Origin: Nanobdellota archaeon | GTDB lineage: Archaea > Nanobdellota > Nanobdellia > Woesearchaeales > UBA9642 | Assembly: GCA_021813435.1 (NCBI GenBank) | Contig: JAKAKR010000012.1 | Location: 9,982 to 73,981, forward strand | Length of the DNA stretch: 64,000 nucleotides | Reading direction: 5' to 3' | Shown here: positions 5,588 to 35,230 of the stretch, piece after piece | Position numbering within the stretch: position 1 is the first letter of the stretch | Layout of the letters: every line of letters starts with the position of its first letter | Position numbers and translations under genes: made by a program | Notes under the pieces: model-generated | The model's database searches: none | Told to the model about the DNA's origin: nothing | The model's input: the letters and a program-made list of their open reading frames with translations, nothing else

Positions 5588-5607
5588 TTAATACCTCATA
5601 TTTCGTA

Positions 5608-8390: not shown

Positions 8391-8394
8391 TTTG

Positions 8395-10624: not shown

Positions 10625-11685
10625 TTTAGCATGTTAATGATTCTTTCGGTAACCTTCTCTCCAAATGGGTTCATCCAGTCACGATCAGAATATATTAACT
10701 TCTCGGATGCTTTTTTTAGATTATCATATTCGTGATTAGAAAGTATTGATGCACCAACCTCAATTGTCTCAGGTCTTTCAGTGTTATCTCTCAAGGTGAT
10801 ACAAGGTGTTTTCAGTATGCATGATTCTTCTTGTATCCCTCCTGAATCTGTATAAACAATTTTGCTTTTAGAGATTAGAATTAGGGTGTCAAGATATTTT
10901 GTTGGTTCAATAACTTTGATAGATGTAGGTATAGTGATATGATATTTCGCAATGATATTGAGTGTTCTCGGATGTATTGGAAATACTATTTCTAACGAAT
11001 ATTCTTGGCTTATCCTATCAATTGACGATAAAAGTTGCGAAAGCTTCGTTGGATCATCAACATTCGAGGGTCTGTGCAATGTAAGTAAAGCAAAGTTATT
11101 TGATAAATTCAACGTATTTAATATTTCACTATTCTTATATGCAAGTTCTAGGTTACAATTGACTGCATCGGATATAGTATTCCCTGAAACTATTACCTTA
11201 TTCTCTGCGATTCCTTCCTTCAATAATATTTGTGCTTGTATACGCGTGGGGCAAAATAAATAGTCGGATATGTGGTCAACGAGTATGCGATTCTTTTCTT
11301 CCGGCATAGTATTATCATAGCTGCGCAGACCTGCTTCTATATGGACTAGTTTTATGTTCAATTTCGAAGCAGTCAAAGCGCCCGCTAAAGTGCTGTTGGT
11401 ATCACCTTGTACAATTACGTAAGTCGGCTGCTCTTTGATCAATATCGGTTCGATTTTTTGCATCATTGTTCCAGTTTGCTGGGCGTGGCTTGCTGATCCA
11501 ATATTTAAATTATATTTCGGATTAGGTAGCATTAATTCCCGAAAAAAAACAGAGTCCATATTTTCATCATAGTGCTGATTAGTATGGATAATAAAAAAAT
11601 TTATTTTTTTATTGAGGAGTTCTCTAATAATCGGACTAAATTTTATTATTTCTGGTCTAGTCCCTAAAACAATACAAATCATCAT
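10621..11685 (-). CDS. wecB: UDP-N-acetylglucosamine 2-epimerase (non-hydrolysing).
   Basis: Hallmark motifs GTRPEIIK, HTNQHYD and HIEAGLRS are present. Length is 354 aa. Confidence 0.85.
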   Translation of the reverse strand: MMICIVLGTRPEIIKFSPIIRELLNKKINFFIIHTNQHYDENMDSVFFRELMLPNPKYNLNIGSASHAQQTGTMMQKIEPILIKEQPTYVIVQGDTNSTLAGALTASKLNIKLVHIEAGLRSYDNTMPEEKNRILVDHISDYLFCPTRIQAQILLKEGIAENKVIVSGNTISDAVNCNLELAYKNSEILNTLNLSNNFALLTLHRPSNVDDPTKLSQLLSSIDRISQEYSLEIVFPIHPRTLNIIAKYHITIPTSIKVIEPTKYLDTLILISKSKIVYTDSGGIQEESCILKTPCITLRDNTERPETIEVGASILSNHEYDNLKKASEKLIYSDRDWMNPFGEKVTERIINMLK

Positions 11686-13463
11686 TTTAACCCCAATTTA
11701 CCTATACAATATGTTATTGATTCTGTCGCATAAACACTCACAGTTAATACACCTGCAATAGGATGCACAACCCAAGCAAAATTTCTATCCTTAAAAATCA
11801 TATAAACAGACTCTATGAATGGTCCCACAAATGTTGCCAAATAAATAATCGATAATACAAATTTAATGTTACTAGTATCTCTCATCCAGATACTTCCGAT
11901 ATTTCTGTCATAACGCCATAACACTTTACTCACTATCTTTTTTCTTTTTTTTACAAAATCAGTTAAAGAGTTGGCATAATAGTGATAGATGTATGCATTA
12001 TTAGGTATTGCGTAAGTACTATATCCTTTTGTACGCAAATAATTTACGAAATTGGCTTCTTCAAAAATCGAGGTATCTTTCCAGTATTTACTCACCAGGG
12101 TTTTGTTCCATAAAAATCCATTTGCTCCCGTAATATACGGTTTGTCGGGCATTTGAAAAATTAAAGAATAATATTTCTTATGCACCACTGTTCTAGGTGG
12201 AGTGCACAGCATTCGAGCAAGAGGGTCAGAAATTCTTAGAAGTGTACAATATTTATTAATTAACGTCATATTTGTATTTATTGTCATCTTTGATTCAACG
12301 CCAATAATATTTGTTTCGTTATGCATGGCGTATATCATGTTCAGTAACCAATATTCATTTGTGATTATATTATCGGAGTCTAGAAGTATAAAATATTCAG
12401 TTGTACATTTTTTTATACCTACCGCTTTCCCATATTCTGCTATACGATGGGGATTGTTCTCAATTTTAACATCATATTTCTTTGCGATATTCAAGGTATC
12501 ATCTTTCGAACCGCCATCGATTATTATTACATCGAATTTGTTTTTAGGATACTTTTGCATAAAAATTCCGTTCAAACAATCTACAAAGTATTTATCAGAG
12601 TTATAAGTCGTAATTATAAAAGTTACTGGAGGGTAATGTGACAACATCGGCTGACTTTCAATGTAACTTTTTAATCCCTTTTTAAAAGAAATGAACTCAT
12701 TCAATTTTAGGACAAAAAGCCCGAATAAAAGTAATGGATGCAATAATCCATTTATTAACACCTTAAAAGGACTGAATCTCTTAAAAATATTGCGTTGATT
12801 ATTTGAAATAACACGATTCTTTTTTTGATACAAATAAAAATATTTTGCGTAATCTTCCTTCTTTTTTTTGATATTTGAAATATTTAGCTCACCTTCATCA
12901 TGCATTAATAATAGTTTTGTACGATATATCTTGTTGGTATATTTTCGAATTCTATTGTTTAAATCCCAATCTTCAAAAGCATTTAAGTCTTCATCATACC
13001 CCCCGATTTTTAAAAAGACTTTTTTATCGAAAAATCTTGCTGCTTCTATTAAATCATTCCCAACGTAAAAGCTTCTCTCAAACGCCTTAACTTTAGCCCA
13101 ATACCCGATACCGATGGATTTCTCGGGAAGGATTATTGCTTTGCAATTCGTCTGCTCAGCAAGCTCAACGCATTCCTTCACAGAATCTTTATGAAAATAA
13201 ATATCTGAGTCATGAATAAGCAAATACCTTCCTTTAGATTTTTTTGCACCAAAATTTCGCTGTGCACTTCGTTCAGGACCTTTCGTATAGAATTTATCTG
13301 CATATTTTTTTGCTATTTCTGGTGTCTTGTCAGTACTGTTATTATCAACCACAATTAATTCAATATGTCTATAACTTTGATTCTTAATTGTTCTCAAACA
13401 TCTTTCCAAAGTTCTTCCGGAGTTCTTTGTTGTTATGATAACCGAAACTAATGGCTTATCCAT
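11682..13463 (-). CDS. Bifunctional glycosyltransferase with two tandem GT2 (GT-A) domains and a C-terminal membrane anchor.
   Basis: The first domain reads VSVIITTKNSG...DNNSTD...DSD. The second, around residue 280, reads VTFIITTYNSD...DGGSKDDT...DSDN. The tail is hydrophobic. Confidence 0.7.
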   Translation of the reverse strand: MDKPLVSVIITTKNSGRTLERCLRTIKNQSYRHIELIVVDNNSTDKTPEIAKKYADKFYTKGPERSAQRNFGAKKSKGRYLLIHDSDIYFHKDSVKECVELAEQTNCKAIILPEKSIGIGYWAKVKAFERSFYVGNDLIEAARFFDKKVFLKIGGYDEDLNAFEDWDLNNRIRKYTNKIYRTKLLLMHDEGELNISNIKKKKEDYAKYFYLYQKKNRVISNNQRNIFKRFSPFKVLINGLLHPLLLFGLFVLKLNEFISFKKGLKSYIESQPMLSHYPPVTFIITTYNSDKYFVDCLNGIFMQKYPKNKFDVIIIDGGSKDDTLNIAKKYDVKIENNPHRIAEYGKAVGIKKCTTEYFILLDSDNIITNEYWLLNMIYAMHNETNIIGVESKMTINTNMTLINKYCTLLRISDPLARMLCTPPRTVVHKKYYSLIFQMPDKPYITGANGFLWNKTLVSKYWKDTSIFEEANFVNYLRTKGYSTYAIPNNAYIYHYYANSLTDFVKKRKKIVSKVLWRYDRNIGSIWMRDTSNIKFVLSIIYLATFVGPFIESVYMIFKDRNFAWVVHPIAGVLTVSVYATESITYCIGKLGLK

Positions 13464-14491
13464 TTCTCAAGCCTCCCGATGTTTTTGTTCCAGTCTGCGT
13501 GTGTTCTTGCAAATGTTATTGATTCGGTAGCATGATATTGTGGATTTTCAATCATCTTGTCCATTGCAGTGCGCATTTCTTTAATATTCCTGCACATAAT
13601 TCCTGTCTTATTGGCGTCGCGTAGTCCGGGGACGTCATAGGTTATAGCTATTGTCCCATTCGCATTGGCTTCAGTCACGATGAGTCCCCACCCTTCACGT
13701 ACTGAGGTCACAAGTATCGCAAGACTTTTTGCCATAATCTTATCCCGCTCCATTAAACCAATCTGTCCAGTAAATACGACCTTTTGTTCCAGATGAAGTT
13801 TTCTTACGAGGCGCATAAGATCTTTTTTATAATCGCCATCACCAATAACATACAATTTCGCATCAACATCAACCATTGCCCGTATTGCATCCTGCGCCCG
13901 TTTGCTCTTCTTGAGCCTGCCACAAAACACGAATGCATGCTCCTTATCAGAAACATTCGACATTGGCGTAAAATCAATCTGGTTTTCAAGAACCAATATC
14001 TCTTTTGGATTCATCCAGGCATAAGAGACTAAATCATTCTTAGTGGAGTTTGAGACAACAAATGCGCGTGTACATGCATATAATTTTAGATAACACCATT
14101 CACAAACAATGCCGATTGTTGCAACGGCAATATTTTTTTCATAAAACCATACATCAAGCGCTAATTGGTGAAAAAACGCAACTCTCTTCTTGCGTGGAAC
14201 ATAGAGTGGGGTAAAAAATGGGACAGTATTCACCTGATCAATTACTAAATCATAATTACCTCGCTTATAAAATTTGTAGGCTTCAATATATACTGAGAGC
14301 GGGGTCCCAGAGCGGGCAATCGTATATCCATGATAATTCTCAGATTTTCTTGAGCCCTGAAACCTGCTTGAAAACAATGTAACAGAATGGCCTTCTCGAG
14401 CAAGTCCCGCAAGATAATTATCAGTCACGATCTCAGCACCGCCCTTAAGCGGATTCTTCATATCCCTCCATGCGAGCATGAGGATGTTCAT
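13448..14491 (-). CDS. Family 4 glycosyltransferase (GT-B).
   Basis: MNILMLAWRD...GGAE is a GT4 N-terminus. The C-terminal VREGWGLIVTEANANG carries the E..E motif. Confidence 0.7.
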   Translation of the reverse strand: MNILMLAWRDMKNPLKGGAEIVTDNYLAGLAREGHSVTLFSSRFQGSRKSENYHGYTIARSGTPLSVYIEAYKFYKRGNYDLVIDQVNTVPFFTPLYVPRKKRVAFFHQLALDVWFYEKNIAVATIGIVCEWCYLKLYACTRAFVVSNSTKNDLVSYAWMNPKEILVLENQIDFTPMSNVSDKEHAFVFCGRLKKSKRAQDAIRAMVDVDAKLYVIGDGDYKKDLMRLVRKLHLEQKVVFTGQIGLMERDKIMAKSLAILVTSVREGWGLIVTEANANGTIAITYDVPGLRDANKTGIMCRNIKEMRTAMDKMIENPQYHATESITFARTHADWNKNIGRLEKWISH

Positions 14492-15234
14492 TTGTTCTGA
14501 TAATACCTCAATATGTAGTATCTATACCATATCGCTAATGTGTCGATGAGCATTCCGCGCACTGTCTTGGTGTTTATTCCAGTGCCCGAATTCTTATAAT
14601 CAAGAGTGATAGGTGCCTCCACAATCCGGAATCCATGCTTATGGGCAAGAAAACATAATTCCAGATCAAAAGCATATTGTTTTACCAAGATATACGGCAT
14701 GATAATTTTTAGGACATCGCGCTTCATGAGTTTCAGTCCAGTCTGGGTATCATGCAATTTAAGTCCAAAAAACACGCGGATAAACATTGAATACCAAAAT
14801 GATAGTACGCGCCGAAAGAACGGATACTGCAGTTTAGAGAATGGATGCCTTTTTGATCCGACGACCATATCAGCTGCTGAAAGATAGGGATACATCCGCT
14901 TGAGTTGCAAGGGATCAATATCCATATCCGCATCAAGAAACGTAACCAATTCACCCGTCGATGCCTCAAATCCCTTCTTTAATGCATAACCCTTCCCATG
15001 ATTAGTCTTATAAGAAATGATCTTAATCCCTACAACCTTGCGCGCCTCGCGATAAGTATTATCCACATGCCCATCAATAACTAAGATAATCTCATAATCA
15101 GATACTACGCCCGAAAGCTTGCGCTTAATAACCTCAAGATTATTCCGGATAGTACGCCCTTCCCGATATGCAGGGATAATAATGCTTAATTTTTTCGACT
15201 GCATATAATAAAACCCCCTCGAAAGGAAAATCAA
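14488..15234 (-). CDS. Dolichyl-phosphate glycosyltransferase of the DPM1/AglD/ArnC type (GT2).
   Basis: LSIIIPAYREG...DGHVDNT...LDADMD is present in a 248 aa ORF. This is the typical short Dol-P-sugar synthase architecture. An alternative start at MQSKK is at 15204. Confidence 0.65.
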   Translation of the reverse strand: MIFLSRGFYYMQSKKLSIIIPAYREGRTIRNNLEVIKRKLSGVVSDYEIILVIDGHVDNTYREARKVVGIKIISYKTNHGKGYALKKGFEASTGELVTFLDADMDIDPLQLKRMYPYLSAADMVVGSKRHPFSKLQYPFFRRVLSFWYSMFIRVFFGLKLHDTQTGLKLMKRDVLKIIMPYILVKQYAFDLELCFLAHKHGFRIVEAPITLDYKNSGTGINTKTVRGMLIDTLAIWYRYYILRYYQNK

Positions 15235-15242
15235 TACATCAT

Positions 15243-16535
15243 TTATAAATGTTTATGTTTTTTTGAGGACCGCAGCGTATAGAAAAAGAGACATACAAAT
15301 AGGGCCCCCAGAACAAGCAGCATCATCAGAATCACCAAGAAGAGACTGGTATGAAAAAGAAAGATAAGACCGATCTCTACAATAATCGCACCGATAACAT
15401 AATAGATGAACGCGTAACGTTTCAGGGCAAGATTATACATAATCATGATCTGATTTAAGGAATACAATCCGAAAGCAAGACCATAAAACCCGATAAGTCC
15501 AGAGATATCATATGCCGCGCCGTAGAACAAACGAACAATAATGTGAGGAATATAAAAATACAAGAGTGTTATTGCACCAACAATAAGTGCAGCATAGCCA
15601 AGCGTACTCTTGAATAGTTTAAATGTATCCTTACCCCGCGCATGCAAGTAAACAACTTTAGGGAACATAACCCCGACAAAGAACCCCGACGCAAACCAGA
15701 CGATTTTTGCAATATTGTCCGCGGCAGCAAAAAAACCTGCCTCGCGACTGCTAAAAAAGTGTTTAACAAGAAGGATATCAATCGTAATGAGCAGTGCAGG
15801 AATAAGAGTAGTTATAAGAACGGGAACAGCGTATTTGAGTACGTCAAGATGCTTGATCTTCTTCGGACGAACTTTACGCAATCGCAAAAGTGCAAAAAAC
15901 CCCACAATAAACGCAATAATAATCCCTGCAACAACTCCACCAATGGCTCCTGCAATACCAAAGCCGAGGACAACAAAAAGTATACCCAACACAAGCTTCA
16001 AGCCACTGCTGATGATACTCGTCACATTCTGATAGAGGAACCGCTGCAAGCCATTCAGATAGCCGCCAATGACTGCAAAAAGGATACTCACAAATCCCAG
16101 CACACCCACAAGGATTAAACCTGCAGCAACATCAAGCTTGAGAAATCGTGCAATCATTGGAACCAAAAGGATAAATAACCCGAGAAGAATGATCCCGATG
16201 ATCGTAAGATACCGAAAACTGCTCGTAATAAGGGTGCGGAGTCGTCCATAATCCTTGCGTGCACGATACGTTGCCGTATAATGGGAGATTACTGTCGTGA
16301 TAGTCCCTCCACCGATTTGGACAATATAGATGAATGCAAAAAGACTTCCTAAAACACCGTATGTCTCTGGACCTAGTGTACGACCCATATAGATCTGATA
16401 CAAGTAATTTGCAATTGAGGAGAATAACGAACCAAAAAGGAATATGCCGCTTGCAAGAAGCAAACCATCATCCTTATCCAATATCCGTTTAATATATTTT
16501 CTCATGACTATCAATCTCTCCCGCATCTTCTGCAA
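15243..16535 (-). CDS. MOP-superfamily oligosaccharide flippase (Wzx/AglR-like polysaccharide biosynthesis protein).
   Basis: A 430 aa ORF with ~12-14 TM helices, a positive N-terminus and a glycine-rich helix pattern. It sits inside the GT cluster. An alternative start is at 16505. Confidence 0.55.
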   Translation of the reverse strand: MQKMRERLIVMRKYIKRILDKDDGLLLASGIFLFGSLFSSIANYLYQIYMGRTLGPETYGVLGSLFAFIYIVQIGGGTITTVISHYTATYRARKDYGRLRTLITSSFRYLTIIGIILLGLFILLVPMIARFLKLDVAAGLILVGVLGFVSILFAVIGGYLNGLQRFLYQNVTSIISSGLKLVLGILFVVLGFGIAGAIGGVVAGIIIAFIVGFFALLRLRKVRPKKIKHLDVLKYAVPVLITTLIPALLITIDILLVKHFFSSREAGFFAAADNIAKIVWFASGFFVGVMFPKVVYLHARGKDTFKLFKSTLGYAALIVGAITLLYFYIPHIIVRLFYGAAYDISGLIGFYGLAFGLYSLNQIMIMYNLALKRYAFIYYVIGAIIVEIGLIFLFHTSLFLVILMMLLVLGALFVCLFFYTLRSSKKHKHL

Positions 16536-17397
16536 GGGCGAAATACTTCAATAAATATCCAAATATAAGGACTGTTCCAAGATAGAGCGTTAACACACGG
16601 ATCACTGACGATAAACCAAGGATTGTTCCCACACCAAAAACTAACAGCAGGGCAATGCCGACAAATAAAAACACCCTGCTAAAAAATAGTCGACCGGTAT
16701 GCACAAACGCAAATGCTGTTGTATAATTTTTACGCAATTCTCCAAACTCCAAGAGAACACCGATGACCAGAAAATAGAACGCATAAATCGCTGCAGCCTC
16801 AGCGCCATTATTAAATTTATAGATCAAAAGAAACGGACAAAGCCAAAGTAAAAGGATTGCGGGAAGGATCATATAACGCGCATCAATACGATACGCGAAA
16901 AATAGTATTCCTGCTAATACAAAACAGACAAAAAGCAGCTCCACATTCAGTGCCTTCCATAGTCCGGTATAAAACAAGAGGGTAAACACCCCAATGATAC
17001 TGTAAGAGGCGATAAGCACCAACGCGGAAAAATGATGCTGTATGAACAGCAGCAATCGCTGAAACACCCGAACAATAGATTTGAATAATGAAAGAAAAAA
17101 AGATGAAAACGCAAACCTTCGTGCATGTGATTTATGAGGATGCACGTCATGATGATAAACGCGATGGGTGGAATGCAAGCGTGATTGCAATCGATCAAAA
17201 AATGCAAGAATCCGCGCAATGTCTATATATGCAAGAATAGTCAACAATAAGATAAATGCAAGTGCAAAACTTACCCGGATAGAAAGACCAGGAAAAAGCA
17301 GTGCAGGCTTGAGCAGAGCATATGCTTCAAGAACAATAAGTCCGATAAGTAGGTATAAGAGGTAAGATCGATAGTTGCGCAAAATTCCCCCCATCAT
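16489..17397 (-). CDS. Hypothetical polytopic membrane protein with a His-rich loop (HSTHRVYHHDVHPHKSH).
   Basis: A 302 aa hydrophobic ORF. It is the first gene of the minus-strand cluster. Confidence 0.45.
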   Translation of the reverse strand: MMGGILRNYRSYLLYLLIGLIVLEAYALLKPALLFPGLSIRVSFALAFILLLTILAYIDIARILAFFDRLQSRLHSTHRVYHHDVHPHKSHARRFAFSSFFLSLFKSIVRVFQRLLLFIQHHFSALVLIASYSIIGVFTLLFYTGLWKALNVELLFVCFVLAGILFFAYRIDARYMILPAILLLWLCPFLLIYKFNNGAEAAAIYAFYFLVIGVLLEFGELRKNYTTAFAFVHTGRLFFSRVFLFVGIALLLVFGVGTILGLSSVIRVLTLYLGTVLIFGYLLKYFALAEDAGEIDSHEKIY

Positions 17398-23907: not shown

Positions 23908-24212
23908 GAAGAGAATTCTCTACTACTATATATACCGGACATTTCTCACTGACGATATTGAAATCATCCTCGCTTCGCCGCGGTTGCCATCTGTTCGCTC
24001 TCAACGATGTTTGCAGGATATGCTCATTCATCTTGTCATAAAAATCGAAGATTTTTAGGAAATTAAACACATTCTTTGTTTAATTTAATCTTCTGAGCAT
24101 TCTATGCACTATGAATATTCGCTCACCTGAGGATGGCAATTATGATCTCAGCATAGTTCTTCCCACCAATACATTTATATAATACTGCGATTAGAAGGAA
24201 TTGAAGAGGTGA

Positions 24213-24659
24213 ATGATGGGTATCCTAGATTTTTTTAAGAAGAGGAATCCAGAACCTGTAGCTCCGGACCTGAATCTTGACATGAATGCAGGACTTCCCG
24301 GCATGCCTAATCTTGATCCTGGACTCGGACCAGAATTTGACCAGCACCCGGCAGATTTGAGCGGGGGAACAAATCCCTCGAGCATGAATATGCAGTCTGC
24401 GACAAACCTTTCCAGTATGGGATTCCAGTCAGGGTCACAACAAACCGCAGCAATGATGGGCGTGGCAGGCGGAACGCAACCCACATACGCATCCTACCCG
24501 CAACAACCCCCGGCAGACCTGCAGAAGGATTTGCAGATACTCTCACTCAAACTTGATGCAATCAAATCACAACTCGACTCAGTCAACCAGCGGGTCTCAA
24601 CAATTGAACGTATCGCACTCAAAGATGAACAGCAGATGCAACAAAAACGGTGGTATTGA
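24213..24659 (+). CDS. Hypothetical protein with a disordered Pro/Gly/Ser-rich N-terminus and a C-terminal coiled coil.
   Basis: A 148 aa ORF with heptad-like LQILSLKLDAIKSQLDSVNQRVSTIERIALKDEQ. It overlaps the lspA start. Confidence 0.4.
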   Translation: MMGILDFFKKRNPEPVAPDLNLDMNAGLPGMPNLDPGLGPEFDQHPADLSGGTNPSSMNMQSATNLSSMGFQSGSQQTAAMMGVAGGTQPTYASYPQQPPADLQKDLQILSLKLDAIKSQLDSVNQRVSTIERIALKDEQQMQQKRWY

Positions 24660-25245
24660 TACCATAACACCCGCAAGAACTCCTGCAAAGACTGCAGCGA
24701 TATCAAGCGGTCTTCGGGCAGGCGGGTATTATTATGCCATCGTATTTCTAATCCTTATCATCATTGATCGCCTGACAAAGATTTGGGCAGCGCAACTCTC
24801 TCATGAACAGGATTATGGGATATTCTCCTTTGTGTATGTGACCAATACTGGCGCAGGATTCAGTATCTTTACCGGGCAGAACACGCTTCTCATCATGCTC
24901 TCACTTATTGTTCTTGGACTACTCATCTTTTTTTCTTCGTCATTGCACCGGACCGGTGTATGGGTGGTTGCTGCAGGACTTATCGGCAATCTTATTGATC
25001 GCGTGAGTTATGGGTATGTTATTGATTTTATCAATTTCAAATTCTGGCCAGTATTCAATGTCGCAGACATGATGATTGTATTGGGAGTCATTGCGCTGAT
25101 AATTGATTTATGGAGAAAAGATCGCGCAGTTTCCGGCAAAGAAAAGAGTGGATCAAAACACATGCAGCGTAAAACATCAGGGAAAAGTAATGCTCAAAAA
25201 AGATCCCGAACAGTTATCAGAAAAAAGAAGCACACACAAAGATAG
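24625..25245 (+). CDS. lspA: Lipoprotein signal peptidase (signal peptidase II, peptidase family A8) with a basic C-terminal tail.
   Basis: All LspA blocks are present: IIDRLTK, NTGAGFSIF, GNLIDRVSYGYVIDFINF and FNVAD. Both catalytic Asp are conserved. The start was set at the in-frame ATG at 24625. Confidence 0.8.
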   Translation: MNSRCNKNGGIDTITPARTPAKTAAISSGLRAGGYYYAIVFLILIIIDRLTKIWAAQLSHEQDYGIFSFVYVTNTGAGFSIFTGQNTLLIMLSLIVLGLLIFFSSSLHRTGVWVVAAGLIGNLIDRVSYGYVIDFINFKFWPVFNVADMMIVLGVIALIIDLWRKDRAVSGKEKSGSKHMQRKTSGKSNAQKRSRTVIRKKKHTQR

Positions 25246-25282: not shown

Positions 25283-25615
25283 CTAGAATTCGTCAAGATC
25301 CTGGAGTTTGTCCAGAAATCCATTGCGCTCAAGCCATTGCACCTGGATTGGCCTATACTTGAAGATAATGTCCCCTTTTTCGTCGCCATCAAATTCCCAG
25401 GGCTCAATAAGGACCACATCGTTCTCGCGGACCCATAATTGGCGTTTTAATCGTCCAGGAATCCTGCAGTTCCTTGTCTTTCCATCAAGACACCGGACCT
25501 TTGCACGGCTGCCGCCAAGGCGCTGTTCAAGAATGCCCAGCACTTCTTTTCCGCGGGGTGTGCGCACACGCGTGAATTCTTCAGTGCCTTCGGTTGATGG
25601 TGCATTAAATGCCAT
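25283..25615 (-). CDS. eif1a: Translation initiation factor 1A (aIF-1A/eIF-1A).
   Basis: [37 protein letters not shown]...[10 protein letters not shown]...KGDIIFKY. Confidence 0.8.
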
Positions 25616-25913
25616 GATTCCAGGAAAAATGTCCCACACTTTATATAGCTTTTGATTTAGTGGGGGTGTTCAAAAAGTACGCCAATGCCACTATGCGAGC
25701 ATCGTAAAACAATTTTGCGAGCTGACCTAAGATATTGAACAAAGTAAACAAAGTTTACTTGGTTTCCTAAAAATTGAGTATCAATTTTTTTGACAAGAGT
25801 AAATGTCAGCGATCAAAACACGATACGCATGCGAGCGGCATGGCGTAAAAAAATATTTTCAACATACCTTATCACTTAAATAAATTTTTAAACCAAGAAA
25901 AAATCCAAATATC

Positions 25914-26441
25914 ATGGGACGGATGGATACGCACACAATCAAAAATCATGCACCGATTGGTAAACGGATCCTTGCATTCATCGCAGATTTTCTCATCATT
26001 GACATTGTGATTTTCTGGGCATTCCAGAATGCGTTTGCGCAGGTGTTTTTCGCAAAAACATTCAAAGAGGCCATGCAATCAGCACAGTCCATTAACCCAG
26101 CAGTATACTTTCTGCTCCTCGTTGTCGCACTGCTCATGCTCTTCTATCACACCTTTTTCGAATATTATCTCGGGCAGACCCCGGGGCAGATGTTCTTCAC
26201 TATCCGCGTGATTGATCGCGTCAAAGGTGAAGTCGGGTTCTGGAAGGCGCTTACGCGCAACCTCTATATCCTCCCCTTTTTCCCCTTTTACATCTTCTGG
26301 ATCATTGAACCGATTTATCTCGCGTTTTACAAGGAACGATTCCTCGAGCGCATCACGAACACTGCAACAATCAATGCAGATGCGTATAGCACGCCTGAGA
26401 ACAGGTCATGGAAATCGTATCCATTCAAGAAAGTAAAATAA
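25914..26441 (+). CDS. RDD-family membrane protein.
   Basis: KRILAFIADFLIID...GQTPGQMFFTIRV is the RDD signature. It has 3 TM helices. Confidence 0.6.
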   Translation: MGRMDTHTIKNHAPIGKRILAFIADFLIIDIVIFWAFQNAFAQVFFAKTFKEAMQSAQSINPAVYFLLLVVALLMLFYHTFFEYYLGQTPGQMFFTIRVIDRVKGEVGFWKALTRNLYILPFFPFYIFWIIEPIYLAFYKERFLERITNTATINADAYSTPENRSWKSYPFKKVK

Positions 26442-26465: not shown

Positions 26466-27392
26466 ATGAAAGACGAACAACCCAAAAAACGATTATGGAC
26501 CATGGTGTGGATACTCCTCATCCTCTTGGTATTTAGCGTACTCATCGCTGCAGTATTTACCGGCATCGGATCGCAGGATACAAATTATAATACTGCAATC
26601 ATCGGAATCAACGGCGAGATCACCAGTGACGATAGCGGATCATTCTTTGCAGGAGCAAGCGCGAGTTCACCGACGGTCATCGCTGAGCTTGAGCGTGCAC
26701 GCACTGACCCGCAGGTCAAGGCAATCATTCTTGAGATCAATAGCCCGGGCGGAAGCCCGGTCGCAACTGATGAGATAAGCGAGGAGATCAAGGATATCCG
26801 CAATAACAATATCACTGTTGTTGCCTGGATCCGCGAGGAAGGCGCATCAGGCGCATACTGGATCTCGACTGCAAGCGAACATATCATCGCAAACCGGATG
26901 AGTATTGTCGGATCCATCGGGGTCACGGGATCCTATATTGAATGGTATGGACTCATGAACCGTTACAATGTCACCTACAAGCGGCTTGTCGCCGGAGAAT
27001 TCAAGGACACCGGAACACCATACCGACCCATGAGTTCAGCAGAAGAAGCGATGCTCCAGTCAAAACTGGACAAATTGCACGAATATTTTATCAGTGCAGT
27101 TGCCGCAAACCGTCATATGAGTGTCGCAAAAGTGCGCGATCTTGCAACCGGAGAGATATTTTTGGGTGTCGAGGCAAAAGAGAATGGGCTTATCGACGAA
27201 CTCGGGGGAAAACGCGAGGCAGAGGCGTATCTTGCAAAAAGATTGAATACCACGATCACGACACGGGAATTTGTTCCTGACAAAGGATTTTTCGAACGGC
27301 TGATGAGCGCCATGAACCAGAACAGTTTTTTCATGGGTGAAGGCATTGCATCTGCAGTACTCAAGCAAAACGCACTCAAGATACAGACATAA
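26466..27392 (+). CDS. sppA: Signal peptide peptidase SppA (36K type, S49 family).
   Basis: N-terminal TM, INSPGGS serine motif and the GEFKD/K region. Length is 308 aa. Confidence 0.7.
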   Translation: MKDEQPKKRLWTMVWILLILLVFSVLIAAVFTGIGSQDTNYNTAIIGINGEITSDDSGSFFAGASASSPTVIAELERARTDPQVKAIILEINSPGGSPVATDEISEEIKDIRNNNITVVAWIREEGASGAYWISTASEHIIANRMSIVGSIGVTGSYIEWYGLMNRYNVTYKRLVAGEFKDTGTPYRPMSSAEEAMLQSKLDKLHEYFISAVAANRHMSVAKVRDLATGEIFLGVEAKENGLIDELGGKREAEAYLAKRLNTTITTREFVPDKGFFERLMSAMNQNSFFMGEGIASAVLKQNALKIQT

Positions 27393-28132: not shown

Positions 28133-30052
28133 TTAGATATATACCATATGTTCTCTGCTTTTTATCCCGTAGATGATGACATAGGTCCAAAACAGCCTTT
28201 TCTTGCGCGTGATATGCACGGAGAATCCTGCGTCACGAAAAATCTTCTCGATGTACGCATCGTCCGAGAGCCATTTCACGTTCGGGATGACCCAGAAATA
28301 GTCGACGTACTCGACCATGCAGATCTTGCCGTTGCGGGGAAGGATCTTTGCAATGTCCCGGAGCACTTTGTGCACATCTTGGATATAGCTGAGTTGCCCG
28401 ACAGAGAATGCGACGTCGATATTCTTGACACTCGGGTGGACTCGGCTGATATGATGCTCATCATAGATCGGCTCGACATTCGTAAGGTTCCTGCGCGCAA
28501 GGCGTTTTTCAATGATTGCAATGTTTTTCTGGCTGATATCAGTTGCGTAGATCTTTCCGCCCGGTCCCACAATATCTGCAAGATGGAGTGTCAGTGTTCC
28601 AACCCCTGCGCCATAATCCAGTACGACCTTGTCCTTGAGGTCTGAAAAGTAGAGGAGCAATTCTTTGCGGAATGTCTTGGGAAAACTGATATTTTCGAAT
28701 AAGAGATCAAAGATTGCAAATGAGTCATTGACTTTCTTGATCCAGTCAGGATCATAATAGATCATGAGAAGCAGAAAGATTGGGATACCAAAAAGGATGA
28801 AACTCAGGCCCAGCCGGAACATGCCGAATGCATCCGGAGTCGAAAAGAGCCAGGCCACGACCGTAGTAGTATAGATGAGTGCAACAATGATGGGCCCGCT
28901 TTTTCCGAACCATACCTTGAATGGTCGGGGATGATTGGGTTTTTTGTAACGGAGCACCACCACTGCAAGAATGATTGAGATATACATGAGAAGTGCCATG
29001 GGTACGAGCAGTTCAAGAAGGTATTCGTATCGTCCGAACCCGAAAATGATGACTGCAATAAGTACCACGGTCTGGAAGATGATTGCCTTATAGGGCGTCT
29101 GGTAGCGGGGGTGGATGTCTTCGAGTTGCTCGATGAATAATTTGTCGCGTGCAAGCCCGAGAAGGAGTCGGGGACTGCCGATGAGTCCGCCTGCAGCTGA
29201 TCCGATAAGCGCGAGTGCAACACCCATATTGACAATGATTGCGACCTGCGGATTGAATAGAATGGCAGTCAAGTCAGAGAGTGGTGTTCCTGAATGCGCA
29301 AGGATATGCCAGGGGATAACGCCGAGCATGACAAATGCGAGCAGGATTCCGAGCAGTGAGACAAAGACTGATCCCCAAAGGAGTGCCTGCGGGATGACGT
29401 ATTCAGCATTCTTTGTTTCTTCAGCCATGAATGTCGCATTTTCCCATCCAAAGAATGTTTCGACAATAAAGAAGAGCGCGACAAAGAGTCCGAGAAATGG
29501 CGTCGTAAAGAACGGCGTATAGTTGGCATAGTTGATGTGCCCGAATCCAAAAACAATAATGGTCATAAGGACCACGATGATGATGATTGCAAAAATCCCA
29601 AGGATTGTCGAGATGCTGTCGGTCCCGAAATATGCAAAGGTGTTCAGGAGCACAACAATAGCGACTGCAAGAACAATCTTGAAGATCATGCCATATTCTT
29701 TCGGGATTAAATAATCGAGTGCTGCAACAATGAGCAGCGCATTCATGATATTGATGACGACCCAGGATGTCCATCCGATGAGAAACGCCAGAGGCCCCTT
29801 GCCATAAGCCTGTTTTGCAAATTCATAGACTCCTCCTGCGCTGGGAAACATTGCAGTCAATTCGCCAAAGCATGCACCGACATAGACAGTCATGATGCCG
29901 AGAAATATCCAGACGAGTATCGAGGCATTGCCTGCCTTGTCAGCCGCAAGTGCTGTCCCAAAAAACATCCCGGTTCCGATCATTGCAGTAATGGTTATTG
30001 CAAAGATTGTCCAGAATCCTAGTGTGCGTTTCAGCTCAGCCATTGTTTCCAT
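28133..30052 (-). CDS. APC-family amino acid permease fused to a C-terminal class I SAM-dependent methyltransferase domain.
   Basis: The N-terminal ~440 aa has 12 TM helices with the permease signature GTGMFF...GELTAMFPSAGGVYEF. The C-terminal ~190 aa carries MTase motif I (VLDYGAGVG) and the post-I acidic ATDIS. Confidence 0.65.
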   Translation of the reverse strand: METMAELKRTLGFWTIFAITITAMIGTGMFFGTALAADKAGNASILVWIFLGIMTVYVGACFGELTAMFPSAGGVYEFAKQAYGKGPLAFLIGWTSWVVINIMNALLIVAALDYLIPKEYGMIFKIVLAVAIVVLLNTFAYFGTDSISTILGIFAIIIIVVLMTIIVFGFGHINYANYTPFFTTPFLGLFVALFFIVETFFGWENATFMAEETKNAEYVIPQALLWGSVFVSLLGILLAFVMLGVIPWHILAHSGTPLSDLTAILFNPQVAIIVNMGVALALIGSAAGGLIGSPRLLLGLARDKLFIEQLEDIHPRYQTPYKAIIFQTVVLIAVIIFGFGRYEYLLELLVPMALLMYISIILAVVVLRYKKPNHPRPFKVWFGKSGPIIVALIYTTTVVAWLFSTPDAFGMFRLGLSFILFGIPIFLLLMIYYDPDWIKKVNDSFAIFDLLFENISFPKTFRKELLLYFSDLKDKVVLDYGAGVGTLTLHLADIVGPGGKIYATDISQKNIAIIEKRLARRNLTNVEPIYDEHHISRVHPSVKNIDVAFSVGQLSYIQDVHKVLRDIAKILPRNGKICMVEYVDYFWVIPNVKWLSDDAYIEKIFRDAGFSVHITRKKRLFWTYVIIYGIKSREHMVYI

Positions 30053-33721: not shown

Positions 33722-35230
33722 TTATTGGATCGCATACACCTTGTTTTTCTCATAATACTCTTTTGCATAATCGAGTGATTGCTCATTGTTTGCGTAGAGT
33801 GTCACAAGCGCATCGCCGACCTGCACAATATCGCCGACCTTCTTATGCAGGTATACTCCTGCCTCCTTGGTCTTGGGAGCGCCGCAGAATCGCGCCATGC
33901 GCGAGATATCATGGTTATTGATTGCGCGCACTACACCCTTGCGCTGCGCAGTGAATGTGTGATGGAATTTTGCAAGTTGCGGCAATTTCTTTTTGCCCTG
34001 CGCTGCGATGATGTCCATGAATTTCTCATAAGCCCTTCCGGATTGCAATAATTCAACAACAGCCTGCTGCGCCTTCTTCCGGTTTCCGAGATGCATTGCA
34101 AGAAGCTCTGTTGCCATAAGTATTGTCTTTGCACGCAGATCTTTTGGTGCATCAATATCATTGCGCAAAACTTTAAGGACATCAATTGCCTCAAGGAGCG
34201 GTCCAACCCCGTTGCCGATGGGCGATGAACCATCAGTAAGAATGATCTTGATATTCATGCCGAGCGCCCGTCCAATGGTCGTGAACTGCTTGCGCAAAAG
34301 CCGCGCGCGCGACCAGGTCTTAACCTTTGCATGTTCTGCAACCGGGATATCGATCAGGATATCGGTCGAACCTACAGAGAATTTTTTTGCAAGAATGCTT
34401 GCAAGCATGAGCCCGTCAGTGTCAATGCTTAAGGGATGCTCGATGCGCAGGATCTTGTCATCTGCGGGCGCAAGATTCAATGCCCCGCCCCAGACAATGC
34501 AGGCATTGGTCGACTGGACAACCTGCTGCAATTTTTCTGCAGAAAGCGAAACCTCTGCAAGCACTTCCATGGTGTCTGCAGTTCCTGCAGGACTCGTGAT
34601 TGCGCGTGATGAAGTCTTGGGGATCTTGAGACCGTATGCCGCAATGATGGGGATGACGCACATCGTCGTCCTGTTCCCTGCGACCCCGCCGACACAATGC
34701 TTATCATAGATGTGTTCCTGCGGCGATGCGCGAAGATCAAGTTTTTCTCCTGTCTCGACAATGGCGCGCGTAAGCGCGATGACTTCACTTGTCGAGAGCC
34801 CATGCGCGTAGCATGCTGAGACAAAATAAGTCATCTCAATACTCGTGATCCGTCCCTTTACGATATCCTCGATGATTGTTGCAATCTCAGTTGCAGTGAG
34901 CGTTCTGCCATTCAATTTTCCCTTGATATAGGAGAGTGATACTGGACTATCCTCGCGGGATATCTGTACACGCATGCCTTCTTTAATCCCGAGAAGTGCT
35001 GAAACTTCTTCCATCAATGCAATAGTGTCCTTGCGCAATTTCTTGTTGTCATAGAAATCGACTACTGCAATCACTTCGCGCCCATTCTTGGGATTAGTGA
35101 CCTTTACACGTTCACCAAGGTGAAAGTCGAGTTCAGCGCAAGCCTCGCGATTCAGGACAACAACAGGCACTACACCTGTTGCAATAGGTATGGTCTTGAC
35201 CTTGAAATCCATCATATCACTCCATAACAT
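33722..35230 (-). CDS. AMP phosphorylase (archaeal DeoA-type thymidine phosphorylase family with an N-terminal extension).
   Basis: A 502 aa ORF with the glycosyl-transferase family 3 core and an ~80 aa N-terminal domain typical of AMPpase. It ends ...YEKNKVYAIQ. Confidence 0.7.
   Translation of the reverse strand: MLWSDMMDFKVKTIPIATGVVPVVVLNREACAELDFHLGERVKVTNPKNGREVIAVVDFYDNKKLRKDTIALMEEVSALLGIKEGMRVQISREDSPVSLSYIKGKLNGRTLTATEIATIIEDIVKGRITSIEMTYFVSACYAHGLSTSEVIALTRAIVETGEKLDLRASPQEHIYDKHCVGGVAGNRTTMCVIPIIAAYGLKIPKTSSRAITSPAGTADTMEVLAEVSLSAEKLQQVVQSTNACIVWGGALNLAPADDKILRIEHPLSIDTDGLMLASILAKKFSVGSTDILIDIPVAEHAKVKTWSRARLLRKQFTTIGRALGMNIKIILTDGSSPIGNGVGPLLEAIDVLKVLRNDIDAPKDLRAKTILMATELLAMHLGNRKKAQQAVVELLQSGRAYEKFMDIIAAQGKKKLPQLAKFHHTFTAQRKGVVRAINNHDISRMARFCGAPKTKEAGVYLHKKVGDIVQVGDALVTLYANNEQSLDYAKEYYEKNKVYAIQ

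What the first reader, a model, noticed from the sequence alone, without database searches (positions are those of the whole stretch)
24625..25245. Canonical lipoprotein signal peptidase (LspA) in an archaeal genomic context
The ORF carries every conserved block of bacterial signal peptidase II, including both catalytic Asp (VIDFINF and FNVAD). The window itself is unambiguously archaeal, with proteasome alpha, exosome Rrp41/42/4, aIF-1A, RpoK and LonB. Archaea are generally described as lacking the Lgt/LspA/Lnt lipoprotein pathway. An LspA here therefore suggests a bacterial-type lipoprotein maturation step or a horizontally acquired gene co-opted for another substrate. The protein also has an atypical ~40 aa Lys/Arg-rich C-terminal tail.
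Basis: partly seen in the sequence, partly recalled or inferred. Interest (0 to 1): 0.62.

Follow-up and report, generated by a model that had tools for sequence, protein, structure and literature searches.

The report
Bacterial-type lipoprotein signal peptidase in archaea
A tiny-celled (DPANN/Woesearchaeota-type) archaeon carries an intact, apparently functional copy of the bacterial enzyme that trims lipoprotein signal peptides. Reviews up to 2026 say no archaeal homologue of this enzyme has been found, and here it is paired with a previously undescribed small partner gene instead of the bacterial partner lgt.

Summary
ORF 24625..25245 (+), 206 aa, is a full-length Peptidase_A8/LspA. It scores 107.7 bits in Pfam (cut-off 25) and 83 bits against TIGR00077 (cut-off 73.95). 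Both catalytic Asp and 13 of the 14 residues I recall as strictly conserved in bacterial LspA are present. The AlphaFold model matches solved LspA structures (TM about 0.70).

It is not contamination. Its GC equals that of the window, and it lies between RNase P Rpp14/proteasome alpha/exosome genes and aIF-1A. The same arrangement recurs in about 45 independent archaeal contigs, some up to 953 kb.

The gene belongs to a large clade whose named members are all Woesearchaeota or Nanoarchaeota. Its nearest bacterial relatives are Omnitrophota and Planctomycetes/PVC (branching unsupported). Those bacteria often have lgt directly downstream of lspA. No archaeal locus does.

Instead, 36 of 45 archaeal loci have a lineage-specific small coiled-coil protein directly upstream (window 24213..24659), which overlaps or abuts lspA. 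Lipobox proteins occur in these archaeal loci at near-bacterial density.

Best reading: an anciently acquired, vertically inherited, active signal peptidase II that processes lipobox proteins. Whether Lgt or AliA lies elsewhere in the genome could not be tested. NCBI already names relatives "signal peptidase II", but I found no paper reporting it.

The parts
24625..25245 (+). lspA: signal peptidase II (Peptidase_A8), 206 aa. Basic N-terminal extension is aa 1-36. The predicted TM helices are about aa 32-56, 86-102, 109-129 and from 146. Extracytoplasmic beta strands are aa 67-74, 132-138 and 141-144.
   Evidence: Pfam 107.7 bits, TIGR00077 83 bits. Sequence matches to PDB 6ryo, 9emz and 5dir. 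AF2 model pLDDT 82.9. Foldseek matches to LspA structures with TMt 0.69-0.72.
25024..25026 (+). Codon of the first catalytic Asp, D134, in VIDFINF (Asp124 in my recalled P. aeruginosa numbering).
   Evidence: Invariant in 43 archaeal-type sequences. Aligned to VVDFI of 9emz and VVDFI of 6ryo.
25066..25068 (+). Codon of the second catalytic Asp, D148, in FNVAD (Asp143 in my recalled P. aeruginosa numbering).
   Evidence: Invariant in 43 sequences. Aligned to FNLAD and FNIAD of solved LspA chains.
25111..25242 (+). C-terminal Lys/Arg-rich tail, aa 163-206 (17 K/R in 44 aa). It is presumably cytoplasmic.
   Evidence: Composition. Low-confidence helix in the model. Basic tails of variable length occur throughout the 74-sequence clade, whereas bacterial tails are only 18% K/R.
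24213..24659 (+). Conserved upstream partner ORF ('up'), 148 aa. It has an N-terminal MG(I/F)(L/F)D..KK motif, an acidic P/Q/G-rich low-complexity linker, a four-heptad C-terminal coiled coil (KDLQILSLKLDAIKSQLDSVNQRVSTIERIA) and a basic/aromatic C-terminus. It overlaps the lspA start by 35 nt.
   Evidence: Found directly upstream on the same strand in 36 of 45 archaeal-context lspA loci and in no bacterial locus. The pair is kept with 1-nt spacing where the surrounding context differs. No credible Pfam, NCBIfam or PDB match. All 122 database relatives that carry names are from Woesearchaeota or Nanoarchaeota.
24174..24181 (+). Putative archaeal TATA box, TTTATATA, about 32 bp upstream of the 'up' start. 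It is followed by an SD-like GAGGTGA at 24203-24209. This is the likely promoter of an up-lspA bicistron.
   Evidence: Read directly from the sequence. No transcript data, so this is inference.
25283..25639 (-). aIF-1A, convergent with lspA and 37 bp from its stop. It serves as a syntenic archaeal marker.
   Evidence: Pfam eIF-1a 66.4 bits. Next to lspA in 26 of 45 archaeal loci.
25914..26441 (+). RDD-family membrane protein. It is a syntenic neighbour; no functional link has been shown.
   Evidence: Pfam RDD 64.5 bits. Found in 10 archaeal loci.
26466..27392 (+). SppA-type signal peptide peptidase (Peptidase_S49). It is a syntenic neighbour in a subset of loci and is functionally coherent with signal-peptide removal.
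   Evidence: Pfam Peptidase_S49 138.8 bits. Found in 7 archaeal loci by clustering, including a distant member on a 953-kb contig.

Best explanation
The ORF encodes an active aspartyl signal peptidase II (LspA, MEROPS family A8) of a DPANN archaeon of the Woesearchaeota/Nanoarchaeota type.

Origin: the gene was acquired once, long ago, from bacteria. The nearest sampled relatives are Omnitrophota and Planctomycetes/PVC. Since then it has been inherited vertically as part of a stable chromosomal neighbourhood.

Mechanism (inferred by homology): after Sec export, the four-helix membrane enzyme uses its Asp134/Asp148 dyad to cut lipobox signal peptides immediately before the +1 cysteine of secreted proteins.

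Expression: lspA is co-expressed, probably as a bicistron from an archaeal TATA promoter, with a lineage-specific small coiled-coil protein. That protein replaces the lgt neighbour seen in the bacterial relatives.

Open point: the enzyme that lipidates the cysteine in these archaea is not identified here. It could be an AliA-type enzyme, an Lgt encoded elsewhere, or something unknown.

Shown: family membership, residue conservation, predicted fold, archaeal synteny, the partner gene, and the presence of lipobox proteins in LspA-carrying relatives.

Inferred: catalytic activity, substrate identity, the nature of the lipid, and the direction and age of the transfer.
For: Family membership:
- Pfam Peptidase_A8 107.7 bits and the TIGR00077 equivalog above its cut-off.
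- Sequence matches to solved LspA chains at E 4e-12 to 3e-11.

Conserved residues:
- D48, K52, N74, G76, G118, N122, D125, R126, V132, D134, P142, F144, N145 and D148 are invariant across 43 sequences that are only 35-51% identical to the window protein, and A147 is nearly invariant.
- This covers 13 of the 14 residues I recall as strictly conserved in bacterial LspA, which indicates purifying selection on the active site.

Fold:
- AF2 model pLDDT 82.9 with four TM helices plus beta strands.
- Foldseek top five hits are all LspA (6ryp, 6ryo, 5dir), probability 1.00, TMt 0.69-0.72; the next hit has E 0.6.

Native to the archaeal genome:
- GC 42.4% against 42.1 +/- 6.3% for 54 window genes.
- The identical protein occurs on 14 contigs from several samples, always in the same context.
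- up-lspA-aIF-1A(-RDD-SppA) synteny recurs in GTDB, JGI and ENA contigs of up to 953 kb that also carry archaeal ribosomal proteins, LSM, eIF2 and diphthamide synthase.
- Two relatives labelled as bacterial turned out to sit on archaeal contigs.

Phylogeny:
- The window protein falls in a 74-sequence clade (bootstrap 72) with no verified bacterial member.
- 18 of 19 archaeal-labelled GTDB loci group together with a single bacterial sequence.

Substrates:
- 10 lipobox hits (8 credible) in 551 kb of archaeal-context DNA, against 1 in the reversed-sequence control and 7 in 293 kb of lgt-positive bacterial loci.
- Two of the archaeal hits are independently called genes 2-6 kb from up-lspA.
- PMC12462473 predicts that lipoproteins are prevalent in DPANN.
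Against: - No biochemical data exist for any archaeal LspA.
- No Lgt was found in the window or within 10 kb of lspA in any of about 45 archaeal loci. Bacterial LspA normally needs a lipid-modified cysteine.
- The 64-kb window itself has no credible lipobox protein. Its single pattern hit lies antisense inside secD.
- The residue equivalent to P. aeruginosa Ala109 is Ile or Leu in 98 of 121 archaeal-type sequences. Two extracytoplasmic segments are 5-6 residues shorter than in the bacterial relatives. Substrate or lipid specificity may therefore differ.
- Deep nodes of the NJ tree have no bootstrap support, so a single origin and the donor group are only suggested.
Confidence: 0.8

Rival explanations
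1. The LspA scaffold has been co-opted. Together with the small coiled-coil partner, it acts as an intramembrane aspartyl protease on substrates that are not lipid-modified lipobox proteins. Examples would be other signal peptides, membrane-protein quality control, or a partner-dependent regulatory cleavage.
For: - lgt is absent next to lspA in all archaeal loci, although 28 bacterial loci among those retrieved have it adjacent.
- A lineage-specific operon partner of unknown function is present.
- There are clade-specific changes near the active site (A109 to I/L) and shortened extracytoplasmic loops.
- No lipobox protein is found in the window.
Against: - 13 of the 14 residues that I recall as surrounding the lipobox/lipid-binding active site in bacterial LspA are invariant. 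That is hard to explain if the substrate had changed class.
- Textbook lipobox N-termini such as LLVIAG|C and LLVIG|C are encoded in LspA-carrying relatives at near-bacterial density.
Confidence: 0.13
2. The gene is bacterial contamination or an assembly or binning chimera, not part of an archaeal chromosome.
For: - The family is otherwise bacterial.
- A few database relatives carry bacterial labels.
Against: - The same gene order occurs on 14 contigs carrying the identical protein and in about 45 independent archaeal contigs from GTDB, JGI and ENA.
- Archaeal genes lie within 40-400 bp on both sides.
- GC matches the host.
- The bacterial-labelled relatives P0073 and P0034 are themselves flanked by proteasome alpha, Rpp14 and aIF-1A.
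Confidence: 0.01
3. The gene is a decaying, non-functional remnant of a transfer.
For: No partner lgt is detected nearby.
Against: - The ORF is intact.
- Catalytic and structural residues are invariant across sequences that are otherwise only 35-51% identical to the window protein.
- The operon structure with overlapping or abutting stop and start codons is conserved.
- The fold is predicted with confidence.
Confidence: 0.02
4. The protein is a resistance or decoy copy that protects against bacterial LspA-targeting antibiotics (globomycin or myxovirescin type), as seen for extra lspA copies in producer bacteria.
For: From my own background knowledge, antibiotic-producing bacteria carry additional lspA paralogues. 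I did not check this here.
Against: - A resistance copy presupposes an essential housekeeping LspA, and no second copy was seen in any locus.
- The gene sits among housekeeping genes, not in a biosynthetic cluster.
- It is inherited throughout the lineage.
Confidence: 0.01

Closest known systems
Bacterial lipoprotein signal peptidase LspA (Peptidase_A8; solved structures P. aeruginosa 5DIR/9EMZ and S. aureus 6RYO/6RYP)
   Same: - The whole catalytic domain aligns (aa 40-168).
- Both catalytic Asp residues are present.
- D/K in TM1, the N-x-G motif, GN..DR, V.DF and FN.AD are all conserved.
- The model shows a four-helix bundle plus extracytoplasmic beta strands, with TM-score about 0.70 to the solved structures.
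- It scores above the TIGR00077 equivalog cut-off.
   Different: - Only 26-27% identity to the solved enzymes.
- The position of Pa-Ala109 is Leu here and I/L in 81% of the clade.
- The first extracytoplasmic loop is about 5 residues shorter, and the N54-to-G108 segment about 6 residues shorter, than in the bacterial relatives.
- It has strongly basic N- and C-terminal extensions.
- The host is an archaeon whose membrane lipids are presumably ether-linked isoprenoids or scavenged from a host.
- No adjacent lgt.
lspA-lgt operons of Omnitrophota, Planctomycetes/PVC and some Bacillota (loci L034, L043, L045, L054, L073, L078, L081 and others)
   Same: - These are the nearest bacterial neighbours in the NJ tree.
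- They share the FWP(V/I)FNxAD motif and the same 14-residue spacing between the catalytic Asp residues.
   Different: - In these bacteria lgt follows lspA directly; 28 of the retrieved loci have it.
- In the archaea lgt is absent from the locus, and a small coiled-coil gene precedes lspA.
- Identity is 33-45%, against 45-61% within the window's clade.
AliA/AliB archaeal lipoprotein lipidation system of Haloferax volcanii (arCOG02177/arCOG02178; PMC12462473, PMC13631571)
   Same: - It concerns the same pathway, maturation of lipobox proteins in archaea.
- AliA is reported in DPANN 'with some gaps', and lipoproteins are predicted to be prevalent in DPANN.
   Different: - AliA and AliB act at the lipidation step and are not proteases.
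- The downstream archaeal signal peptidase is explicitly still unidentified in those papers.
- Whether AliA is present in this genome could not be tested, because no AliA sequence or profile was available to the tools.
Archaeal SppA (Peptidase_S49 signal peptide peptidase) and Sec11-type signal peptidase I
   Same: - They belong to the same export pathway.
- An SppA gene lies 1.2 kb downstream in the window and in several relatives.
   Different: - They have unrelated folds and catalytic types (Ser proteases).
- They do not recognise the lipobox.

Membership tests
Signal peptidase II / LspA (Pfam PF01252 Peptidase_A8; TIGR00077; MEROPS A8) | Significant full-length match to the curated family profiles, above their trusted cut-offs | tested here: met
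   PF01252 107.7 bits (cut-off 25), profile positions 2-141 of 142. TIGR00077 equivalog 83 bits (cut-off 73.95).
Signal peptidase II / LspA | Catalytic aspartate dyad (Asp124/Asp143 in my recalled P. aeruginosa numbering) in the V-x-D-F and F-N-x-A-D motifs | tested here: met
   D134 (VIDFINF) and D148 (FNVAD) align to the corresponding motifs in 9emz and 6ryo. Both are invariant in 43 relatives.
Signal peptidase II / LspA | The other strictly conserved residues. The list (D23, K27, N54, G56, G108, A109, N112, R116, V122, F139, N140, A142 in P. aeruginosa numbering) is recalled from the 5DIR structure paper and was not checked here. | tested here: met
   D48, K52, N74, G76, G118, N122, R126, V132, F144, N145 and A147 are present. 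Only A109 is replaced, by L119. That gives 11 of 12, or 13 of 14 when the dyad is counted.
Signal peptidase II / LspA | Four transmembrane helices with an extracytoplasmic beta-sheet ('beta-cradle') fold | tested here: met
   The AF2 model has helices 32-56, 86-102, 109-129 and 146 onward, and strands 67-74, 132-138 and 141-144. Foldseek to 6ryp, 6ryo and 5dir gives probability 1.00, TMt 0.69-0.72 and rmsd 2.7-3.5 A. This is a prediction, not an experimental structure.
Signal peptidase II / LspA | Enzymatic cleavage of lipid-modified prolipoproteins before Cys+1, and inhibition by globomycin or myxovirescin | not testable with these tools
   This requires expression and an activity assay. The organism is uncultivated.
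Bacterial Lgt-LspA(-Lnt) lipoprotein pathway | Lgt (PF01790) encoded in the same genome | tested here: inconclusive
   An Lgt HMM built from E. coli Lgt and 12 bacterial loci finds nothing in the 64-kb window or in about 550 kb of archaeal-context loci. It does find lgt adjacent to lspA in 28 bacterial loci. The rest of the genome could not be searched.
Bacterial Lgt-LspA(-Lnt) lipoprotein pathway | Lipobox-bearing substrates encoded in the genome | tested here: inconclusive
   The window has none that is credible. LspA-carrying relatives have 8 credible hits in 551 kb, against 1 hit in the reversed control. No proteome-wide test on this genome was possible.
Archaeal Ali pathway (AliA arCOG02177) | An AliA homologue in the genome | not testable with these tools
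   No AliA sequence or profile was obtainable: the supplements of PMC12462473 are not held. Four multi-TM window proteins without any Pfam or NCBIfam family could not be compared with AliA.

The most novel reading that the evidence does not exclude
Woesearchaeota-type DPANN archaea run a hybrid lipoprotein-maturation route. A bacterial-derived LspA is adapted to a non-bacterial lipid anchor through the A109-to-I/L change and shortened loops. It works without a neighbouring Lgt, as a two-gene module with a lineage-specific coiled-coil accessory protein that docks on its basic cytoplasmic tails. If so, this would be the first archaeal signal peptidase II and would reveal a new LspA accessory factor.
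Probability: 0.3. Interest if true: 0.75.

Novelty: new variant of a known kind. Interest (0 to 1): 0.6.

Why it matters
Reviews and primary papers from 2012 to August 2026 state that no archaeal homologue of SPase II/Lsp (or of Lgt) has been identified, and they list the archaeal lipoprotein signal peptidase as an open problem.

This finding shows that a large archaeal lineage does carry a bona fide, conserved LspA embedded in core archaeal synteny. That has three consequences:

- It corrects the general statement.
- It gives a directly testable candidate: heterologous expression, globomycin sensitivity, and cleavage of archaeol-modified versus diacylglycerol-modified lipopeptides.
- It raises the question of how an enzyme evolved for diacylglyceryl-cysteine works in an archaeal or host-scavenged membrane without an adjacent Lgt.

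The conserved partner ORF is a new lead for LspA biology.

Two limits apply. The result does not solve the problem for haloarchaea or other Euryarchaeota. NCBI's pipeline already labels relatives as "signal peptidase II", so the novelty lies in recognition and context rather than in a new protein family.

Tried and rejected
Lgt near lspA:
- phmmer with E. coli Lgt, then a 13-sequence HMM, found nothing in the window or in the archaeal loci. It found clear hits only in bacterial loci.
- A genome-wide search of the source MAG (GCA_021845245.1) was not possible with the tools.

AliA:
- No sequence or profile could be obtained.
- Pfam and NCBIfam scans of the window's unassigned multi-TM proteins gave nothing relevant. 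The proteins were 2518..4113, 5608..7320, 16489..17397 and 40940..41863. The only hit was a sub-threshold MmpA-like match for 2518..4113.

Function of the upstream partner ORF:
- Pfam gave only sub-threshold coiled-coil noise (NPV_P10, DUF5320, FlaC).
- PDB gave E 0.27 and NCBIfam nothing.

Other conserved neighbours:
- Clustering of all ORFs within 8 kb of lspA in 45 loci gave no conserved multi-TM enzyme that could stand in for Lgt.
- The only extra membrane family, seen in 8 loci, is a 4-TM protein with a C-terminal Cys/His-containing segment (my reading: possibly metal-binding).

Organism name:
- An exact look-up gave no source name for the window proteins.
- Taxonomy therefore rests on the named relatives.

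Literature:
- Searches for any report of LspA/SPase II in DPANN or Woesearchaeota found none.
- The hits on 'signal peptidase II' plus DPANN turned out to be either class III peptidase matches or statements that archaeal SPII is unidentified.

Phylogeny:
- The NJ tree has unsupported deep nodes, so I do not claim a specific donor.

Contamination and pseudogene readings were considered and rejected; see the rival explanations.
Full report
**1. The observation**

An ORF runs from a TTG at 24553 to the stop at 25245. The in-frame ATG at 24625 gives a 206-aa protein. Independent gene calls on four public assemblies that carry the identical protein use this form.

The protein matches Pfam Peptidase_A8 over essentially the whole profile: positions 2-141 of 142, 107.7 bits against a gathering score of 25, E 7e-31. 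It also passes the curated cut-off of the NCBIfam equivalog model TIGR00077 lspA, with 83 bits against 73.95.

Sequence search of the PDB returns only lipoprotein signal peptidases: S. aureus 6ryo at E 4e-12, and P. aeruginosa 9emz and 5dir at about 2-3e-11. The alignments run over residues 40-168.

- VIDFINF is residues 132-138, with D134 encoded at nt 25024-25026.
- FNVAD is residues 144-148, with D148 encoded at nt 25066-25068.

**2. Active-site conservation and fold**

I aligned 43 relatives that are only 35-51% identical to the window protein. The invariant columns are D48, K52, N74, G76, G118, N122, D125, R126, V132, D134, P142, F144, N145 and D148. A147 is nearly invariant.

Mapped through the HMMER alignment to the P. 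aeruginosa chain, these correspond to D23, K27, N54, G56, G108, N112, R116, V122, D124, F139, N140, A142 and D143. That is 13 of the 14 residues that I recall the 5DIR structure paper listing as strictly conserved. The list is from memory; the mapping is from the tool output. The exception is Ala109, which is Leu here.

An AlphaFold2 model built on this alignment has mean pLDDT 82.9. It shows four long helices and three extracytoplasmic strands. In Foldseek against the PDB, the five best hits are all LspA chains (6ryp, 6ryo, 5dir), with probability 1.00, target-normalised TM 0.69-0.72 and rmsd 2.7-3.5 A. The sixth hit has E 0.6.

The protein is therefore a structurally complete LspA with an intact active site.

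**3. It belongs to an archaeal chromosome**

Upstream on the opposite strand lie RNase P Rpp14, proteasome alpha, SBDS, Rrp4, two RNase PH subunits (Rrp41/42) and RpoK. Downstream lie aIF-1A (convergent, 37 bp away), an RDD protein, SppA, an amino-acid permease/methyltransferase fusion and LonB.

The GC content of lspA is 42.4%. The 54 larger window genes average 42.1 +/- 6.3%. The identical protein occurs on 14 contigs of up to 517 kb from several samples, always in this context. One of them is NCBI assembly GCA_021845245.1.

Scans of GTDB species representatives and of metagenome contigs with the family alignment returned 160 loci. Of these, together with loci fetched individually, 45 have archaeal context. 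aIF-1A lies next to lspA in 26 of the 45, RDD in 10 and SppA in 7.

Two distant family members (42-45% identity) lie on contigs of 953 kb and 566 kb. They show the same order among genes for ribosomal proteins L37e, S8e and S7, LSM, eIF2-gamma and diphthamide synthase.

Two close relatives are labelled 'Alphaproteobacteria bacterium' and 'bacterium' in NCBI. Both are in fact flanked by archaeal genes: the first by proteasome alpha, Rpp14 and aIF-1A, the second by aIF-1A. These are mis-binned contigs. Contamination is excluded.

**4. Lineage and origin**

All informative source names among the closest 120 relatives are Candidatus Woesearchaeota, Nanoarchaeota or 'archaeon'. Several GTDB loci labelled 'Methanosarcinales' or 'Methanobacteriota' share the Woesearchaeota-type synteny, so those labels are probably automatic mislabels.

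I built a neighbour-joining tree of 197 core domains. The window protein sits in a 74-sequence clade with bootstrap 72 and no verified bacterial member. 18 of the 19 archaeal-labelled loci fall in one 132-sequence group together with a single bacterial sequence. The next bacterial neighbours are Omnitrophota, Planctomycetes and PVC.

Deeper nodes have no support, as expected for about 145 aligned positions. A single ancient bacteria-to-archaea transfer followed by vertical descent is therefore the most economical reading, but it is not proven.

**5. What differs from the bacterial relatives**

*(a) Gene neighbourhood.* An Lgt HMM, seeded with E. coli Lgt from locus L085, finds lgt immediately downstream of lspA in 28 bacterial loci. 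It finds none in the window or in any archaeal-context locus.

*(b) A new partner gene.* The archaeal lspA is preceded on the same strand by a small ORF, window 24213..24659, which overlaps the lspA ATG by 35 nt.
- Homologues of this ORF occupy the same position in 36 of 45 archaeal loci and in no bacterial locus.
- In two contigs where the downstream context is different (an S-layer protein or DUF6259 instead of aIF-1A), the pair is retained with one nucleotide between stop and start.
- The family has an N-terminal MG(F/I/L)(F/L)DK..FWKK motif, an acidic P/Q/G-rich low-complexity linker, and a C-terminal helix of about four heptads (KDLEIISSKLDAIKAxLDSINQRLxNLERIA) with a regular 3-4 hydrophobic spacing. 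It ends in a basic/aromatic C-terminus.
- It has no credible Pfam, NCBIfam or PDB match.
- Its 122 detectable database relatives carry only Woesearchaeota or Nanoarchaeota names.
- A canonical archaeal TATA box (TTTATATA, 24174-24181) and an SD-like GAGGTGA precede this ORF. This suggests an up-lspA bicistron, which is inference only.

*(c) Sequence features of the archaeal LspA*.
- The Ala109 position is I/L in 98 of 121 archaeal-type sequences, against Ala in 49 of 53 bacterial relatives.
- The first extracytoplasmic loop is 22 residues against 27.
- The N54-to-G108 segment is 44 residues against 50.
- The spacing between the catalytic Asp residues is identical, at 14.

*(d) Basic termini.* The window's C-terminal tail (44 aa, 17 K/R) is the long end of a clade-wide feature. 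The clade median is 17 aa at 47% K/R. Tails in the bacterial relatives are 18% K/R.

**6. Substrates**

I scanned ORFs of at least 80 aa with a strict combined pattern (the G+LPP pattern plus a PROSITE PS51257-like rule).
- 551 kb of archaeal-context DNA gave 10 hits, of which 8 are credible.
- Reversed-sequence controls gave 1 hit.
- 293 kb of lgt-positive bacterial loci gave 7 hits.

Examples:
- Three tandem paralogues with LLVIAG|C, 4-5 kb from lspA in a Woesearchaeota contig. That contig also encodes a wyosine-formation enzyme, a class Ic (Glu/Gln-type) aminoacyl-tRNA synthetase of 560 aa and DUF460.
- A 433-aa thrombospondin-repeat protein.
- Two independently called genes, a DJ-1/PfpI protein and a 239-aa protein, lying 2-6 kb upstream of up-lspA in L169.

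The window itself has no credible candidate. Its single hit is antisense within secD. At the observed density, fewer than one would be expected in 64 kb. PMC12462473 independently predicts that lipoproteins are prevalent in DPANN.

**7. Mechanism**

The best-supported explanation is an active signal peptidase II. After Sec export (SecD and SecF are in the window), it cleaves lipobox signal peptides before Cys+1 using the D134/D148 dyad. The adjacent-region SppA is a plausible, but unproven, downstream degrader of the released peptides.

The lipidation step is unresolved. Lgt was not found locally, AliA could not be tested, and the Ala109-to-I/L change and shortened loops may reflect a different lipid anchor.

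The partner protein's acidic linker and the enzyme's basic cytoplasmic tails suggest a direct interaction. This is speculation.

The main rival is co-option of the scaffold for non-lipoprotein substrates. It cannot be excluded, but the invariance of the substrate-facing residues makes it less likely.

**8. Comparison with what is known, and novelty**

The protein passes every sequence and structure membership test for LspA. Activity and pathway context remain untested.

Database pipelines already name relatives 'signal peptidase II [Candidatus Woesearchaeota archaeon]'. The literature held here says otherwise:
[quoted passage not shown] - 'an archaeal Signal Peptidase II ... has yet to be identified' (PMC7613921).
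[quoted passage not shown] Targeted searches for DPANN or Woesearchaeota together with SPase II, lspA or Lgt found no report.

I rate it a new variant of a known kind: a known enzyme family in an unreported domain-level context, with a new conserved partner and without its usual neighbour.

The score is moderately high rather than high, for three reasons. DPANN are known to hold many bacterial-derived genes. The function is inferred. The finding does not identify the signal peptidase of lipoprotein-rich Euryarchaeota.

Noticed in passing
window 24213..24659 (+), and the equivalent position in 36 of 45 archaeal lspA loci: A lineage-specific small protein lies directly upstream of lspA and overlaps or abuts it. 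It has an N-terminal MGxxDK..FWKK motif, an acidic low-complexity linker and a four-heptad coiled coil. It matches no known family, and its named relatives are all from Woesearchaeota or Nanoarchaeota. I have included it in the report as a probable operon partner.
   Followed up: yes
L016 14662..15771 (+) (Woesearchaeota RIFCSPLOWO2_02_FULL_34_11): This is a strong match to cyclopropane-fatty-acyl-phospholipid synthase (CMAS, 305 bits). In bacteria that enzyme modifies fatty-acyl phospholipids. It sits on an archaeal contig that also carries lspA and three lipobox genes, which hints at bacterial-type lipids in the membrane of some of these archaea.
   Followed up: no
window 55803..56303 (+) and 56305..56754 (+): These are two adjacent small proteins. 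The first matches Pfam Class_IIIsignal at a sub-threshold score (21.3 bits against a cut-off of 23.7), and the second looks similar by eye. They are likely substrates of a prepilin-type peptidase, not of LspA.
   Followed up: partly
window 2518..17397 (-): This is a long same-strand cluster of glycosyltransferases, a Polysacc_synt flippase and several large multi-TM proteins without family assignment. One of them (2518..4113) gives a sub-threshold MmpA-like match of 98 bits. It is probably a cell-surface glycan locus.
   Followed up: partly
window 28133..30052 (-), and L006, L008, L009, L086, L087, L092, L135, L169: A 639-aa fusion of an amino-acid permease with a SAM-methyltransferase domain is conserved in synteny near lspA and aIF-1A across the lineage. 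Its function is unknown.
   Followed up: no
L017, L018, L024, L027, L037, L050, L094, L122 (between lspA and aIF-1A, minus strand): In eight relatives, but not in the window, a roughly 220-aa protein is inserted between lspA and aIF-1A. It has four TM helices and a C-terminal Cys/His motif (TPGKYVASKxSNVYHxPKCxWAKKI...GYKxHxC). The motif may bind a metal, but I did not test this.
   Followed up: no
window 33722..35230 (-) and 50866..51714 (-): The first is a thymidine/AMP-phosphorylase-type protein (Glycos_trans_3N, Glycos_transf_3, PYNP_C). The second is a UbiA-family prenyltransferase next to secD/secF. The prenyltransferase could be the archaeal-lipid DGGGP synthase, which would bear on which lipid is available for protein anchoring.
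   Followed up: no
GTDB loci L005, L017, L020, L024, L027, L028, L037 ('uncultured Methanosarcinales archaeon, binchicken') and L008 ('Methanobacteriota archaeon'): These records share the Woesearchaeota-type up-lspA-aIF-1A synteny. Their taxonomic labels are therefore probably wrong.
   Followed up: partly
L171 1..285 (+): An Exosortase_EpsH (exosortase/archaeosortase-family) gene fragment lies just upstream of the up-lspA pair in one relative. That is another protein-sorting enzyme next to lspA.
   Followed up: no
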